IMG/VR virus record: IMGVR_UViG_3300046817_000765
Source: a virus
Length of the DNA: 64,000 bases
Reading direction: 5' to 3' (one strand)
Each line of letters begins with the position of its first letter. Positions within the stretch are counted from its first letter, which is position 1. Position numbers and translations under genes: made by a program. Below the pieces are notes generated by a model. That model ran no database searches and was not told where the DNA came from. It was given only the letters and a program-made list of their open reading frames with translations. This document shows positions 4,236 to 6,886 of the stretch, piece after piece.

Positions 4236-4517
4236 TCACCAGCCGATCCTCGCCCGGTCGACCTCGTTGCGCTCGCCGGTTTTCACCTCGGCTTCCCAGC
4301 GCTCGGCCTGCTCGTCCATCCGAACGGCGGCCTCGGCGCGCGTGACACCCGTCAGGTAAATGTTGTTCCCGTTCGACGTCATCGGCACCGGGCCCCATCC
4401 GAGCGCGGCCTCGCGGCGAAGATCAGCCGCCAGCTTGCGGCACGTCGCCGCCATCTCGCGCGGCCGCAGCGGGTAGTATTTGGTCACCCGACCGCTGCCG
4501 GGCGCGCGGCCGGTCAT
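4236..4517 (-). CDS. hypothetical protein
   Basis: ATG 4517 overlaps TGA of 4514..4762 (ATGA). Confidence 0.55.
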   Translation of the reverse strand: MTGRAPGSGRVTKYYPLRPREMAATCRKLAADLRREAALGWGPVPMTSNGNNIYLTGVTRAEAAVRMDEQAERWEAEVKTGERNEVDRARIGW

Positions 4518-4762
4518 GCCGCGGCTCGATGCAGAGGCGGGGGCGGCTCGTGGATGGGTGTCGCACAATTCCTGGCCCCCGCCAGCCGCTCGCGCGGCGT
4601 CTCGTGGTAAGAGGCGGGGGCGGACGACACCTGGGAGTCGCGGTTTCTTTGGCCCCCGCCGGCCCGTTTCCGGGCGTCTCGGAAGGTAGAGGCGGGGGCG
4701 TCAGTCCCTTGGGCGTCGGTTGAGCACAGGCCCCCGCCAGCCCGTCGCCGGGCGTCCGTCAT
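4514..4762 (-). CDS. 82-aa ORF made almost entirely of three guide-like units
   Basis: ATG 4762 overlaps the Tas-like stop (4759-4761); its TGA overlaps ATG 4517; stop-free across the array. Confidence 0.5.
   Translation of the reverse strand: MTDARRRAGGGLCSTDAQGTDAPASTFRDARKRAGGGQRNRDSQVSSAPASYHETPRERLAGARNCATPIHEPPPPLHRAAA
4536..4760 (-). ncRNA. TIGR-like stem-loop array, 3 units (77-78 nt period)
   Basis: Stems GGCGGGGGC/GCCCCCGCC at 4536-4583, 4613-4660, 4691-4738 each enclose CC(A/T)-N9-CG-ACNC-CCA-N9-CG (minus strand); each has an adjacent 5-bp GNRA hairpin. Confidence 0.85.
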
Positions 4763-6084
4763 GGCTCGTTCAATCCGCGAGGCGGCAGGCCGCGCTCGAC
4801 CCGCCACAGATCCCGCAGCAGCGCCTTCGACATGATCCGCCGCGCGTCGTTGTCGCACCGTTTCGGCGTCCACTTCTCCGGGTCTTTGCCGTCGAGGTTG
4901 TCGGTCGCCAGGACGCGGGGCCGGGTCGCCGCGATGCGCCGGGCGTAGACCTCGCCATAGGGTCCGGCGGCGTGTCCGAGGATCACGTCGCTCGCCGGGC
5001 ACGCGGTCTCGCAGACCTCGCAGACGGCGGCGTCATCCTTCCAGTCGAACTTTGTCGGCTTGCCGCAGACGAAGCAGTCCAGCCGCGCCCCGGCCCACTG
5101 ATGCTTGAACATCGTCTCGGACAGGAACGTGAAGACCTCGCCCCGGCGTCGCTTCGGATGGAACAGCCGCCGGGCTTCCTCGTCATCCTTCCGCTTGCCG
5201 CTGATGCCCATCTGGCGCCGCCCGTCGATGACGGCGAGGCCCATGTGCTTCCACAGCCCACTGATCGTCAGGTAGTCGCGGAGCGGTATGCCGGCCTCGG
5301 CGGCCATGACGGCGTAGCCGAGGAAGCCGAAGCCCCTGACGGTCGCCACGTAGGCCGCGGCCGGCAGCAGCCGGGCCAGCCGCTCCATGTCCCGCTCGAG
5401 GTTCTTGCGCAGGATCGGCCACTGCTCCCGCGCGGCGGCGGCCTGGACGATGAGGGGGGCGAAAACGGAGAGGGCGGGGCGATCAAGGGTGTCGTTCGGG
5501 TTCTGGCCCTCGCCGTTTCCTTCCGCGCCGAGGCGGAACTTGCGTGCCTTGGCGAAGGCTTTCTTGCGGCTCTTGTCGGTGCCGTCCGTTCCGAGCGCGC
5601 TGACCATCAGGTGCTCGATCCGACTGACCGAGCCGTTGGTCTCCTTGATGCAGAACAGGCGTTGCTTTTGCAGTTCGACCAACTGACGGACGACGATGAG
5701 ATGATCGACGCGGGAAGACGTGGCGAGGGCGGGCGGCTCCTGGGTGTCGGGAGCGGGTTGGCCCTCGCCACCGGCCGCGCCATCGCTGGCGGGACCGATG
5801 GGGTCGGAGGCGGGCGTTAGACTCGTGGGCGTCGACGCCGTGTTGGCCCGTCTCCGTCGAACCTTCGCGGGCCCGATCTCGTGTCCGTTGGGCGGCGTGG
5901 CGAGGGCGTGCCACGAGTGGGTGTCGTTGTCCCTCTGGCCCTCGCCACGCTTACGGGTCGCCTTCGCGGGCTTCCCGATCTTCGTCTTCGCGAGGCGGGG
6001 CGGCACGCCTGTGGGTGTCGTTCCTTCTCTGGCCCCGCGCTCGCCGGAGACGTCGCCGCCGCCGATCCCTCCATCACGCGGCAT
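4759..6084 (-). CDS. TIGR-associated (TasA-like) Nop-domain protein, no nuclease domain, Zn-finger insert
   Basis: Coiled coil then 'VRGFGFLGYAVMAAEAG..DYLTISGLWKHMGLAVIDGRR...YGEVY...DARRIMSKALLRDLW', the IS110 C-terminal/Nop pattern; no N-terminal DEDD RuvC domain; guide-like units inside and on both sides. Confidence 0.8.
   Translation of the reverse strand: MPRDGGIGGGDVSGERGAREGTTPTGVPPRLAKTKIGKPAKATRKRGEGQRDNDTHSWHALATPPNGHEIGPAKVRRRRANTASTPTSLTPASDPIGPASDGAAGGEGQPAPDTQEPPALATSSRVDHLIVVRQLVELQKQRLFCIKETNGSVSRIEHLMVSALGTDGTDKSRKKAFAKARKFRLGAEGNGEGQNPNDTLDRPALSVFAPLIVQAAAAREQWPILRKNLERDMERLARLLPAAAYVATVRGFGFLGYAVMAAEAGIPLRDYLTISGLWKHMGLAVIDGRRQMGISGKRKDDEEARRLFHPKRRRGEVFTFLSETMFKHQWAGARLDCFVCGKPTKFDWKDDAAVCEVCETACPASDVILGHAAGPYGEVYARRIAATRPRVLATDNLDGKDPEKWTPKRCDNDARRIMSKALLRDLWRVERGLPPRGLNEP
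5465..5516 (-). ncRNA. TIGR-like unit embedded in the Tas-like coiled-coil coding region
   Basis: CCA-gaacccgaa-CG-ACAC-CCT-tgatcgccc-CG inside a near-perfect 11-bp stem. Confidence 0.7.
5721..6044 (-). ncRNA. four TIGR-like stem-loop units in the 5' part of the Tas-like ORF
   Basis: Units 5721-5770, 5806-5855, 5895-5950, 5990-6044, each an exact CCA-N9-CG-AC(A/G)C-CCA-N9-CG within a 10-13 bp stem. Confidence 0.85.
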
Positions 6085-6886
6085 TGGCCACCTCCTCCGC
6101 GCGACGGTACAGTTCGTCGGCCTCGTCGGGTTTGATCCAGCGGCGGATGATCTCGTTGCGGTTCAGGTTCGCGCCGATCAGCGACAGCGCGAACCGGACA
6201 TCGCGCGCGGCGGTCCGCTGGTCGAAGCGGCGGCGCTCGGCCCAATCCCGGACCTGTTGGACGGTGCAATCGCCGACCGGCGTGCCGTCGATCCTGACCG
6301 TGTCGAGGCGGGACAGGCGGGCATGGATGGCCACCACGGCCTCGGCGCGGGCGGCGTGACGGTCGGCGAGTGGAGCGGCCGGCGCCGACTGGCTGGGTGT
6401 CGCTGGCATAGTGGCCGGCTCGCTCCCCCGGCCCGCTTGCGGCGGGTCGGGATCGGTGGGGGCGCGGGCGGGCGAAGCGTGGGTGTCGTCGCACCTTTGG
6501 CCCGCGCCAGCCGGTTTCCCGGCGTCTGAATTTGGTCCGGCGGGGACGTGAGATGCCGGGTTGTCGGTGTTCCTTTGGCCCCCGCCGTTCACCGGCCTGG
6601 GGCCGGTGTCCCTCTCCGGCCGCTGGCTCTCGATCTGCCGCGCCGCCTCGTCCAGTATCCAGGTCACCGCCAGGGTCAGAGCCTGCGGCTGGCAGCGTTC
6701 CAGCAGTATCCATGTCGCGTCATCGGCCAGATACGCCCGCACATAATCGCGCCGGGCACCACCCGCGTCGACTTTCGACCATTTTCGCCACGCCTCGACG
6801 GCGGCGGCCAGGACCGCCTGATAAGCCGCCTCCCGCGGCGGGACATAGTTGGCGGCGCGGAACGCCTCGCTCATGGCTGTGCTCAT
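6074..6886 (-). CDS. Tas-adjacent accessory protein; two globular-looking ends joined by a guide-unit-encoded linker
   Basis: Overlaps the Tas-like start; low-complexity middle coincides with three units. Confidence 0.7.
   Translation of the reverse strand: MSTAMSEAFRAANYVPPREAAYQAVLAAAVEAWRKWSKVDAGGARRDYVRAYLADDATWILLERCQPQALTLAVTWILDEAARQIESQRPERDTGPRPVNGGGQRNTDNPASHVPAGPNSDAGKPAGAGQRCDDTHASPARAPTDPDPPQAGRGSEPATMPATPSQSAPAAPLADRHAARAEAVVAIHARLSRLDTVRIDGTPVGDCTVQQVRDWAERRRFDQRTAARDVRFALSLIGANLNRNEIIRRWIKPDEADELYRRAEEVANAA
6372..6586 (-). ncRNA. three TIGR-like stem-loop units inside the accessory ORF
   Basis: Units 6372-6426, 6461-6508, 6539-6586 (last with CCC variant); GAAA hairpin 6510-6523; 78-nt period between the last two. 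Confidence 0.8.

What the first reader, a model, noticed from the sequence alone, without database searches (positions are those of the whole stretch)
4514..6586. All guide units are dual-coded inside coupled ORFs, including an ORF that is little but the array
Seen: no unit is intergenic. Three lie in 6074..6886, four in the N-terminal extension of the Tas-like ORF, and three form ORF 4514..4762, which overlaps both neighbours by ATGA. Units fall in different frames (GQRDNDTHSWHA vs ANTASTPTSLTP), so the nucleotide pattern rather than the peptide is conserved, yet no stop interrupts. Inference: the array is kept translatable to avoid polarity in the operon feeding replication genes, so guides would be excised from mRNA and new units must stay stop-free.
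Basis: partly seen in the sequence, partly recalled or inferred. Interest (0 to 1): 0.85.

Follow-up and report, generated by a model that had tools for sequence, protein, structure and literature searches.

The report
Phage guide RNAs written inside genes
A soil phage carries a nuclease-free RNA-guided DNA-binding system (TIGR-TasA) whose 11 hairpin guide units all sit in frame inside open reading frames; a 2026 preprint already describes this for the effector gene, and here it also holds for a partner gene and a tiny array-only ORF.

Summary
Eleven stem-loop TIGR guide units (stem, CCA, 9 nt, CG, 4 nt, CCA, 9 nt, CG, stem) lie on the minus strand. Three are in the partner gene, four in the tas N-terminal extension, one in an internal tas loop, and three in the 82-codon ORF 4514..4762.

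The 441-aa protein is a TasA-type Nop protein (Z 13.8 to TasR).

For eight units, dual coding is secure. In about 50 related loci the units sit in frame between conserved domains. The partner-stop/tas-start overlap is also conserved, so tas starts upstream of the units.

The 82-codon ORF would be open by chance about 80% of the time in this window. Across the family, 23 of 26 arrays outside tas and partner are open, against 13-17 expected. Three are closed, and the closest relatives have no array there.

The polarity explanation is untested and has counter-examples.

In-frame guides inside tas were published in September 2026 (Xu et al.), and this scan has seen them on another phage.

Features I did not find in that preprint:
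- guides in a non-effector gene
- array-only ORFs
- use of only two of three frames
- wholesale in-frame spacer replacement between near-identical relatives

The parts
6074..6886 (-). Partner gene (270 aa). It has two confidently folded helical domains joined by a disordered linker (about aa 90-175) that is encoded by three guide units.
   Evidence: Homologues lie directly upstream of tas in 35 of 52 sources. The alignment shows conserved N- and C-terminal domains and a variable linker bearing the units. AF2 pLDDT is about 90 in both domains and 41-58 in the linker. No Pfam, PDB or AFDB match gives it a function.
4759..6084 (-). tasA-type effector gene (441 aa). It has a disordered N-terminal extension (aa 1-118, four guide units), a coiled coil, an internal unit-encoded loop (about aa 191-201), and a Nop/IS110-type RNA-binding C-terminal domain. 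No nuclease domain is present.
   Evidence: The top Foldseek hits are all TasH/TasR. VIA-align gives Z 13.8 to TasR 9mty, 13.0-13.4 to TasH and 11-11.7 to IS110 recombinases, and the next unrelated hit is at 8.3. The family profile hits TasR 9mty_A at E 1.2e-7. No Pfam nuclease domain was found.
4514..4762 (-). 82-codon ORF made almost entirely of three guide units plus linkers. Its ATG overlaps the tas stop (ATGA), and its stop overlaps the ATG of the next gene (ATGA). Translation is plausible but unproven.
   Evidence: Sequence and translation are. Openness alone is not significant here (null 0.78-0.80). GC by codon position is flat (0.72/0.70/0.78), like the partner linker that is certainly translated.
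4236..4517 (-). Next gene of the operon (93 aa counted from the ATG at 4517). Its start overlaps the stop of the array ORF.
   Evidence: ORF list and sequence. GC3 of 0.88 against GC2 of 0.57 is a normal coding signature.
6539..6586 (-). Guide unit 1 (core 6547-6578; second box C is CCC). In the partner linker, frame a.
6461..6508 (-). Guide unit 2 (core 6469-6500). In the partner linker, frame a, 78 nt (26 codons) from unit 1.
6373..6425 (-). Guide unit 3 (core 6383-6414). It has a 10-bp stem with a 1-nt bulge and lies in the partner linker.
   Evidence: Exact box pattern. The stem was read from the sequence.
5993..6040 (-). Guide unit 4 (core 6001-6032). In the tas N-terminal extension, frame b.
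5899..5946 (-). Guide unit 5 (core 5907-5938). In the tas N-terminal extension, frame a (GEGQRDNDTHSWHALA).
5807..5854 (-). Guide unit 6 (core 5815-5846). In the tas N-terminal extension, frame b (RRANTASTPTSLTPAS).
5722..5769 (-). Guide unit 7 (core 5730-5761). In the tas N-terminal extension, frame a.
5467..5514 (-). Guide unit 8 (core 5475-5506; second box C is CCT). It encodes the internal tas loop GEGQNPNDTLDRPAL. Nearly all homologues carry a unit at this same position.
4691..4738 (-). Guide unit 9 (core 4699-4730; first box C is CCT). In the array ORF, frame a.
4613..4660 (-). Guide unit 10 (core 4621-4652). In the array ORF, frame a.
4536..4583 (-). Guide unit 11 (core 4544-4575). In the array ORF, frame b (77-nt spacing shifts the frame).
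6883..7185 (-). Upstream 100-aa gene. Its stop overlaps the partner ATG (ATGA). It is part of an unbroken chain of overlapping minus-strand genes.

Best explanation
This is a stem-loop TIGR-TasA system in the early/replication operon of a high-GC soil phage. The operon runs: 100-aa gene, partner, tasA, mini-ORF, 93-aa gene, all on the minus strand with overlapping stops and starts.

All 11 dual-spacer guide units are written on the sense strand inside reading frames. They sit where the encoded peptide is a disordered linker or loop: the partner's interdomain linker, the TasA N-terminal tail, and one internal TasA loop. Three more sit in an 82-codon ORF that is little more than the array.

The RNA hairpin dictates the few conserved residues (G-x-G-Q...D-T-Q/H...A-L in one frame, R-A-N...T-P...P-A-S in the other). 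The 9+9 spacer nucleotides are free to vary as long as no stop appears.

Inferred steps:
- The operon mRNA has two fates. It is either translated or cut into tigRNAs that load TasA.
- Loaded TasA binds DNA without cutting it and acts as a repressor, as published for other TasA proteins.

Why the units are in ORFs: the phage operon has no untranslated space, and disordered segments tolerate insertions. Selection then keeps the host frame open. A weaker family-wide bias also keeps stand-alone arrays open, for a reason not yet known.
For: Shown here:
- Tas fold and sequence relationship.
- Unit anatomy matches the published definition, with 8 exact hits against 0.64 expected.
- 280 units lie on the tas strand and 0 on the antisense strand in 51 non-redundant related loci plus the window.
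- The stems covary. G:U outnumbers A:C 62 to 24, P = 5e-5, under a filter that treats both as mismatches.
- A partner gene with conserved flanking domains carries 1-5 units in its linker in many loci.
- The partner-stop/tas-start overlap and the MPRD start are conserved.
- Frame use among embedded units is 99 / 65 / 1.
- Arrays outside tas and partner are open in 23 of 26 cases. The expectation is 12.8 (shuffle), 15.6 (Markov-1) or 16.9 (empirical unit stop rates), P <= 0.001. The antisense control gives 17 of 26.
- Spacers are replaced in place, without indels or stops, between near-identical relatives.

From the literature:
- Intragenic in-frame stem-loop tigRNAs, and small-RNA evidence for BlTasA (bioRxiv 10.64898/2026.09.09.750476).
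- TasA acting as an RNA-guided repressor.
Against: - There are no RNA or protein data for this phage. Transcription, processing and translation of the 82-codon ORF are therefore inferred.
- That ORF's openness is expected by chance in about 80% of nulls. Its variable positions show no codon periodicity.
- The ATGA-coupling test across the family is weak (P about 0.03).
- No convincing spacer target was found in the window.
- Three related arrays are closed in all frames.
Confidence: 0.75

Rival explanations
1. The 82-codon ORF 4514..4762 is not translated. On this view it is an ordinary non-coding 3' array that happens to be open because the DNA is 70% G+C and the unit motifs contain no stops. 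The two ATGA overlaps are coincidental.
For: - Null models give 0.78-0.80 probability of an open frame for this array.
- Two of three sense frames are open.
- The variable positions show no GC3 signature.
- The closest relatives have no array there, and three of them were seen to have an untranslated gap after tas.
- Some related arrays are closed.
- The coupling statistic is weak.
Against: - Family-wide excess of open arrays (23/26 against 13-17 expected).
- Only the ATG-initiated frame places all three units in the two frames used by bona fide coding units.
- Relatives L061, L062 and L037 translate their downstream array as a C-terminal extension of TasA.
- The partner linker, which is certainly translated, shows the same flat composition.
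Confidence: 0.4
2. One reading: arrays are kept translatable specifically to prevent transcriptional polarity on the downstream replication genes.
For: - The operon is an unbroken chain of overlapping genes leading to a replication-initiator-like gene.
- No promoter-like site and no minus-strand terminator lies between the units and those genes.
- There is a family-wide excess of open arrays.
Against: - It has not been tested.
- Closed arrays occur upstream of tas (L014) and ahead of same-strand ORFs (L012).
- Close relatives tolerate 110-170 nt of untranslated RNA after tas.
- Densely hairpinned, protein-bound RNA is a poor Rho substrate (general knowledge).
- Units inside partner and tas must stay open simply because those proteins are needed.
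Confidence: 0.2
3. The repeats are protein-level repeats (a repeated peptide motif). On this view the hairpin potential is incidental.
For: In one frame the units give a recurring G-x-G-Q...D-T-Q...A-L peptide.
Against: - The same nucleotide unit is read in two frames, giving unrelated peptides.
- The stems covary with many pair types.
- G:U pairs exceed A:C pairs.
- The peptide regions are predicted to be disordered.
- The spacer-encoded residues are replaced wholesale between near-identical relatives.
Confidence: 0.03
4. The units are DNA-level elements: either protein-binding iterons of a replication origin or a REP/MITE-like mobile palindrome inserted in frame.
For: They lie in a replication-gene neighbourhood. 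In-frame palindromic mini-elements are known in phages (earlier scan notes).
Against: - The orientation is strictly strand-specific relative to tas (280:0).
- The G:U bias shows a sense-strand RNA.
- The boxes and 9-nt spacer geometry are exactly those of tigRNAs.
- There are no dispersed copies elsewhere in the 64-kb window. The only other pattern hit is at 13535.
Confidence: 0.03

Closest known systems
Stem-loop TIGR-TasA systems with intragenic tigRNAs, for example Bifidobacterium longum BlTasA and the TIGRFinder catalogue (Xu et al. 2026, bioRxiv 10.64898/2026.09.09.750476)
   Same: - Nuclease-free Nop-domain effector.
- Dual 9-nt spacers flanked by box C (CCA) and box D (CG/TG) inside a palindromic stem.
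- Units at the 5' end and at an internal position of tas here, and at its 3' end in relatives, none breaking the frame.
- Units fall in disordered regions, including one internal loop.
   Different: - Here units also lie in frame in a non-effector partner gene, a feature conserved in many related loci.
- Units also lie in array-only mini-ORFs, so every unit of the locus is inside an ORF.
- I did not find these points, the two-of-three frame rule, or in-place spacer replacement in the parts of the preprint I read.
PlTasA stem-loop array of a Peromyscus leucopus gut contig (Faure et al. 2025, Science, PMC12045711)
   Same: A TasA protein with tandem stem-loop units, each carrying two spacers and box C/D motifs. 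The units are processed into single-hairpin RNAs.
   Different: That array is described as three subarrays separated by an intergenic region of about 450 nt. Here there is no intergenic space, and the units sit inside reading frames.
TasR (9mty) and TasH (9w02-9w04) dual-repeat TIGR effectors
   Same: The same coiled-coil plus Nop/C-terminal domain fold (Z 13-13.8). The sequence relationship to TasR is detectable (E 1.2e-7).
   Different: Those effectors have RuvC or HNH nuclease domains and 36-nt dual-repeat guides from non-coding arrays. This protein has no nuclease domain and uses stem-loop guides.
IS110/IS621 bridge-RNA recombinases
   Same: Related RNA-binding domain (Z 11-11.7; PHROG 'transposase' hit).
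   Different: This protein has no DEDD/RuvC-like catalytic domain, and it has many guide units rather than one bridge RNA. It is not a transposase.
tasParB-tasA operons (Faure et al. 2025)
   Same: A conserved two-gene operon of tasA with a partner gene, with guide units around and between the two genes.
   Different: The partner here has no ParB signature (Pfam) and no known fold match. It also carries the guides inside its own coding sequence.

Membership tests
TIGR-Tas (stem-loop array with TasA) | Effector with the Tas/Nop coiled-coil plus C-terminal RNA-binding fold | tested here: met
   - The top 11 Foldseek hits are all TasH/TasR chains.
- VIA-align gives Z 13.8 (rmsd 2.9, 190 residues) to TasR and 13.0-13.4 to TasH. 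Unrelated hits are at 8.3 or below.
- The family profile hits TasR at E 1.2e-7.
TIGR-Tas (stem-loop array with TasA) | TasA subtype: no RuvC or HNH nuclease domain | tested here: met
   No Pfam domain was found. Residues 1-116 are predicted disordered, and the structural matches begin at about residue 115.
TIGR-Tas (stem-loop array with TasA) | Units with two spacers of 8-12 nt, each flanked by box C (CCA-type) and box D (TG/CG), enclosed by a palindromic stem | tested here: met
   - 8 exact matches to CCA-N9-CG-N4-CCA-N9-CG against 0.64 expected.
- 10 units pass the stem filter. The eleventh has a bulged stem.
- The motif definition is taken from the TIGRFinder methods.
TIGR-Tas (stem-loop array with TasA) | Units co-oriented with and adjacent to tas across relatives, with covarying stems on the sense RNA | tested here: met
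   280 units lie on the tas strand and 0 on the antisense strand. Stem positions show GC, CG, AT and TA pairs with 86-98% Watson-Crick pairing. G:U outnumbers A:C 62 to 24.
TIGR-Tas (stem-loop array with TasA) | Array transcribed and processed into single-unit tigRNAs bound by Tas | not testable with these tools
   No RNA run holds this DNA. All 24 holders are soil or rhizosphere DNA metagenomes.
TIGR-Tas (stem-loop array with TasA) | CUU motif at the base of the stem marking the processing site | tested here: inconclusive
   CTT or CCTTC follows the 3' stem of units 9 and 10 (tCTTacc, tctaCCTTCc), but it is not evident at most other units.
TIGR-Tas (stem-loop array with TasA) | Spacer pairs match adjacent sites on opposite strands of a DNA target | tested here: inconclusive
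   Only three window matches have 2 or fewer mismatches. The best pairs spacer A of unit 2 perfectly and spacer B with 2 mismatches near 19201. This is about what chance gives, and no host genome is available.
Intragenic in-frame tigRNAs (Xu et al. 2026) | Units inside the tas coding sequence without breaking the frame, in disordered regions | tested here: met
   - Five units lie in tas.
- pLDDT is below 50 over residues 1-116 and about 54 at the internal loop.
- The arrangement is conserved in homologues: 131 units lie inside tas ORFs.
Intragenic in-frame tigRNAs (Xu et al. 2026) | Internal unit maps to the wedge loop that contacts the tigRNA | tested here: inconclusive
   The unit encodes a loop (about aa 191-201) that interrupts the returning helix of the coiled coil. 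I could not establish its equivalence to the published wedge loop.
tasParB partner | Partner protein homologous to ParB | tested here: not met
   No ParB Pfam hit. No PDB or AFDB fold match with a name.
REP/MITE-like in-frame palindromic elements | Copies dispersed through the genome, independent of a particular gene | tested here: not met
   All units cluster within 2.1 kb around tas. There is one unrelated pattern hit in the other 62 kb.

The most novel reading that the evidence does not exclude
In this TasA family, guide arrays are selected to be readable by ribosomes wherever they sit: in the effector, in a non-effector partner gene, and in array-only mini-ORFs. On this reading, translation and guide production compete on one mRNA, a built-in regulatory coupling, and these loci would be natural records of spacer acquisition, a step still unknown for TIGR systems.
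Probability: 0.3. Interest if true: 0.7.

Novelty: new variant of a known kind. Interest (0 to 1): 0.45.

Why it matters
The published explanation for intragenic tigRNAs is co-evolution of the guide with the Tas protein. The same units also sit in frame in an unrelated partner gene and in mini-ORFs. That points instead to a constraint at the level of the operon or its mRNA.

The near-identical locus pairs show whole spacer pairs swapped in place while stems, length and frame are kept. They offer a concrete handle on how TIGR arrays gain new guides, which the field lists as an open question.

There is also a practical point for annotation. Disordered tails on phage proteins can be guide arrays, and arrays can be hidden in genomes that seem to have no room for them.

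Tried and rejected
- **Peptide-repeat and DNA-site readings.** Both were rejected on frame use, strand bias and G:U excess.
- **ATGA coupling across the family.** The first version had an inflated background of 19% and showed nothing. A stricter version gave 5 of 22 against about 8% expected (P about 0.03). This is too weak to use.
- **GC by codon position.** It cannot separate a translated from an untranslated array, because the certainly translated partner linker is just as flat.
- **Hydrophobicity of used against unused frames.** The result was inconsistent.
- **Spacer targets in the window.** Nothing was found above chance.
- **Own-genome search.** No genome is held for this window.
- **Sequencing runs.** There are only DNA metagenomes, holding identical copies, so they give no expression data and no microdiversity in the array.
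- **Partner fold searches.** They found nothing informative.
- **Promoter scan.** It found no site. This says little in a 70% G+C phage.
- **First relaxed unit scan.** It timed out and was rewritten.
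Full report
**What is there.**
Window 4514-6886 holds three overlapping minus-strand ORFs:
- 6074..6886 (270 aa, called "partner" here)
- 4759..6084 (441 aa)
- 4514..4762 (82 aa)

They are followed by a 93-aa gene that starts at 4517. The overlaps are ATGA at 6883-6886, 11 nt at 6074-6084, ATGA at 4759-4762 and ATGA at 4514-4517.

A repeat search finds nine copies of a 49-nt hairpin unit. On the minus strand each unit reads: stem, CCA, 9 nt, CG, 4 nt (mostly ACAC), CCA, 9 nt, CG, stem. 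This is exactly the stem-loop tigRNA definition used by TIGRFinder: box C CCA, box D CG or TG, 9-nt spacers.

The bare box pattern gives 8 exact hits between 4544 and 6500, all on the minus strand. Only 0.64 hits are expected in the whole window. One box mismatch adds three more. The hit at 6383-6414 has a bulged 10-bp stem. That makes eleven units in all: three in partner, four in codons 1-118 of the 441-aa ORF, one near codon 195, and three in the 82-codon ORF.

**The protein is a TasA.**
- It has no Pfam domain and only a PHROG "transposase" hit.
- An AlphaFold model built on 21 homologues has a disordered N-terminus (residues 1-116), a long coiled coil and a helical C-terminal domain.
- The best Foldseek matches are all TasH and TasR chains, followed by Prp31/Nop5 and IS110 recombinases.
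- VIA-align gives Z 13.8 to TasR (rmsd 2.9, 190 residues), 13.0-13.4 to TasH and 11-11.7 to IS621/ISCro4. Unrelated coiled coils score 8.3 or less.
- The family profile finds TasR 9mty_A by sequence at E 1.2e-7.
- No nuclease domain is present.

**Relatives.**
I collected 53 protein homologues and 62 loci from viral, genome and metagenome collections.
- With a box-plus-stem filter applied identically to both strands, 280 units lie on the tas strand and none on the other.
- Stems keep 86-98% Watson-Crick pairing at positions 1-7 while using GC, CG, AT and TA pairs.
- Under a filter that treats G:U and A:C alike, G:U outnumbers A:C 62 to 24 (P = 5e-5).
- So the functional form is an RNA hairpin of the sense strand. 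It is not a peptide repeat and not a DNA site.

**Dual coding inside tas and partner is real.**
- Homologues keep the N-terminal MPRDGxEIG, then 1 to more than 8 unit-derived peptide segments, then the core. Nearly all carry a unit at the same internal position, reading GEGQxxxDTQxxxAL.
- The partner stop overlaps the tas start by the same 11 nt (ATGCCGCGTGA or ATGCGGCGTGA) in relatives that are only 44-58% identical.
- A partner homologue lies directly upstream of tas in 35 of 52 sources. Its N- and C-terminal domains are conserved and in one frame, and the variable linker between them carries 1-5 units.
- The partner model has two confident domains and a linker with pLDDT 41-58 over residues 90-175.
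- Of the 280 units, 131 lie in tas ORFs, 37 in partner ORFs and 112 elsewhere.

**Frames.**

| Units embedded in tas or partner | Frame a | Frame b | Frame c |
|---|---|---|---|
| All canonical units (n = 165) | 99 | 65 | 1 |
| CG-type units (n = 72) | 34 | 37 | 1 |

Frame a reads GGC-GAG-GGC-CAG, and frame b is one base later. In TG-type units the third frame contains an obligatory UGA (box D UG plus the loop A). It carries a stop in 53 of 53 such units. CG-type units like those of this window have no such stop, yet they also avoid the third frame.

This is the natural background stop rate.

**The 82-codon ORF.**
In this window its openness means little.
- Shuffling spacers and linkers leaves at least one frame open in 78% of replicates. 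An empirical null built from real units gives 80%.
- Two of three sense frames are open.
- Its variable positions show no codon periodicity (0.63/0.63/0.67). However, the partner linker, which must be translated, is equally flat: 0.74/0.71/0.78 against 0.72/0.70/0.78 for the array ORF. Folded domains show GC3 of 0.81-0.90 against GC2 of 0.44-0.56.
- In its favour, only the frame that starts at the ATG overlapping the tas stop puts all three units in permitted frames (a, a, b). That frame ends on the ATG of the next gene.

Across the family, 26 arrays of two or more units lie outside tas and partner ORFs. All 212 of their spacers are distinct.

| Measure | Arrays open in at least one sense frame (of 26) | P |
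|---|---|---|
| Observed | 23 | - |
| Expected, mononucleotide shuffle | 12.8 ± 2.0 | < 0.0005 |
| Expected, per-locus Markov-1 | 15.6 ± 1.9 | < 0.0005 |
| Expected, empirical unit rates (linkers ignored) | 16.9 | 0.001 |
| Antisense control, observed | 17 | - |

There is therefore a real, moderate bias towards open arrays.

The bias is not a rule.
- L012 3000-3518 (10 units) and L014 4155-4366 cannot be open in any single frame. L042 2108-2543 is closed.
- L014's closed array lies just upstream of tas, and L012's is followed by same-strand ORFs.
- The four closest relatives (L034, L057, L059, L060) have no downstream array. In the three whose junction I inspected, tas is followed by 110-170 nt of non-coding sequence.
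- Other relatives (L037, L061, L062) read their downstream array as a C-terminal extension of TasA whose stop overlaps the next gene.
- A test for stop/start overlap at array-ORF ends was weak (P about 0.03).

**How it most likely works.**

Shown here:
- the anatomy of the units
- the strand they function on
- the identity of the effector
- the in-frame placement in two real genes

Inferred:
- The units are transcribed as part of the operon mRNA. There is no promoter-like site and no minus-strand terminator within the module (weak evidence).
- Some transcripts are cut into tigRNAs and others are translated.
- TasA loaded with a tigRNA binds DNA and represses transcription, as shown for other TasA proteins.

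The polarity explanation is possible but untested, and the exceptions above speak against a strict need. A simpler reading has three parts. A tightly packed phage operon offers no untranslated space. Disordered segments tolerate the units. Selection on the host proteins then keeps them stop-free. That leaves the extra bias in stand-alone arrays unexplained.

**Spacer turnover.**

| Pair | Spacers | Stems | Boxes and loop | Other positions | Units with spacers replaced / unchanged |
|---|---|---|---|---|---|
| L061 vs L062 (TasA 85% identical, core about 97%) | 49% differ | 2.8% | 10% | 8.5% | 6 of 9 essentially replaced / 3 nearly identical |
| L037 vs L036 | 23.5% differ | 2.1% | 0.8% | 3.1% | 3 adjacent units, 5-7 of 9 positions in each spacer / 6 units with no change |

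- In L061 vs L062 there are no gaps inside the units. The replaced units include the one in the internal TasA loop.
- In L037 vs L036 a 6-nt indel lies within the tas N-terminal extension.
- Both spacers of a unit change together, the length is kept, and the frames stay open.
Guide change inside coding sequence is frequent and preserves the frame.

**What is already known.**
- Faure et al. 2025 described stem-loop arrays with TasA.
- Xu et al. (bioRxiv, September 2026) report that stem-loop arrays can lie at the 5' end, the 3' end or inside tas without breaking the frame, mostly in disordered regions. They also show that BlTasA yields tigRNAs from within its own coding sequence.
- This scan has already confirmed the same pattern on another root-metagenome phage. 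It has also seen many CPR TasR loci with ordinary non-coding arrays.
- The headline is therefore not new.
- In the sections of the preprint I read and searched I did not find four things: guides inside a non-effector partner gene, array-only ORFs, the two-frame rule, or in-place spacer replacement.

**Verdict.**
This is a new variant of a known kind, of moderate interest.

Noticed in passing
L061:1786-4400 vs L062:1789-4400; L037:4371-8032 vs L036: Between near-identical relatives, whole spacer pairs are replaced in place (about 70% mismatch in the replaced units). Stems, boxes, length and reading frame are kept, and other units are unchanged. The pattern is bimodal, as expected for acquisition or cassette exchange and not for drift.
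   Followed up: partly
window 4523-6916: One 963-nt contig of soil run X8 aligns to 4200-4522 (14 differences) and then jumps to 6917. It skips exactly partner + tas + array ORF. This suggests the three ORFs form one insertable cassette that a related phage lacks. It is a single contig with a 30-nt side, so it is tentative.
   Followed up: no
window 6074-6886 and homologues (alignment A2): The partner protein is a conserved two-domain family found upstream of tas in 35 of 52 sources. It has no Pfam, PDB or AFDB match. It is not the ParB-like partner described for other TasA operons.
   Followed up: partly
window 4584-4700 and 6508-6546 (linkers): The linkers of the 77-78-nt-period units carry a 5-bp mini-hairpin with a GAAA or GCGA loop on the minus strand, preceded by CGAGAC. 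The first two partner units and the three units of the array ORF share this linker type, so they look like paralogous array segments. Linkers in the tas N-terminal extension instead carry GA(G/A)GATCGGG, which is translated as the recurring E-I-G.
   Followed up: partly
tas codons ~333-362 (window ~4999-5088) and alignment A1 columns 601-650: A four-cysteine CxxC...CxxC insertion (zinc-ribbon-like) is present in the window's TasA and about half of the aligned homologues. It is absent from the rest.
   Followed up: no
window ~19201-19218, minus strand: This is the best candidate self-target. The reverse complement of spacer A of unit 2 (core 6469-6500) matches perfectly and is directly followed by spacer B with 2 mismatches. 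It is within chance expectation.
   Followed up: no
L042:1-1977; L012:632-985; L046:2-1180: Extreme cases in relatives. L042 has a tas ORF with at least 11 in-frame units at 57% G+C. L012 has a 354-nt ORF made of six units whose spacings are not multiples of three. L046 has an upstream ORF holding ten units that ends on the tas start (ATGA).
   Followed up: partly
L060:1-9584; L061:1-1400: The partner-tas pair occurs in different mobile contexts. In L060 it sits next to RecT, GapR, MucR and VirB-type conjugation genes. In L061 it sits beside a phage integrase.
   Followed up: no
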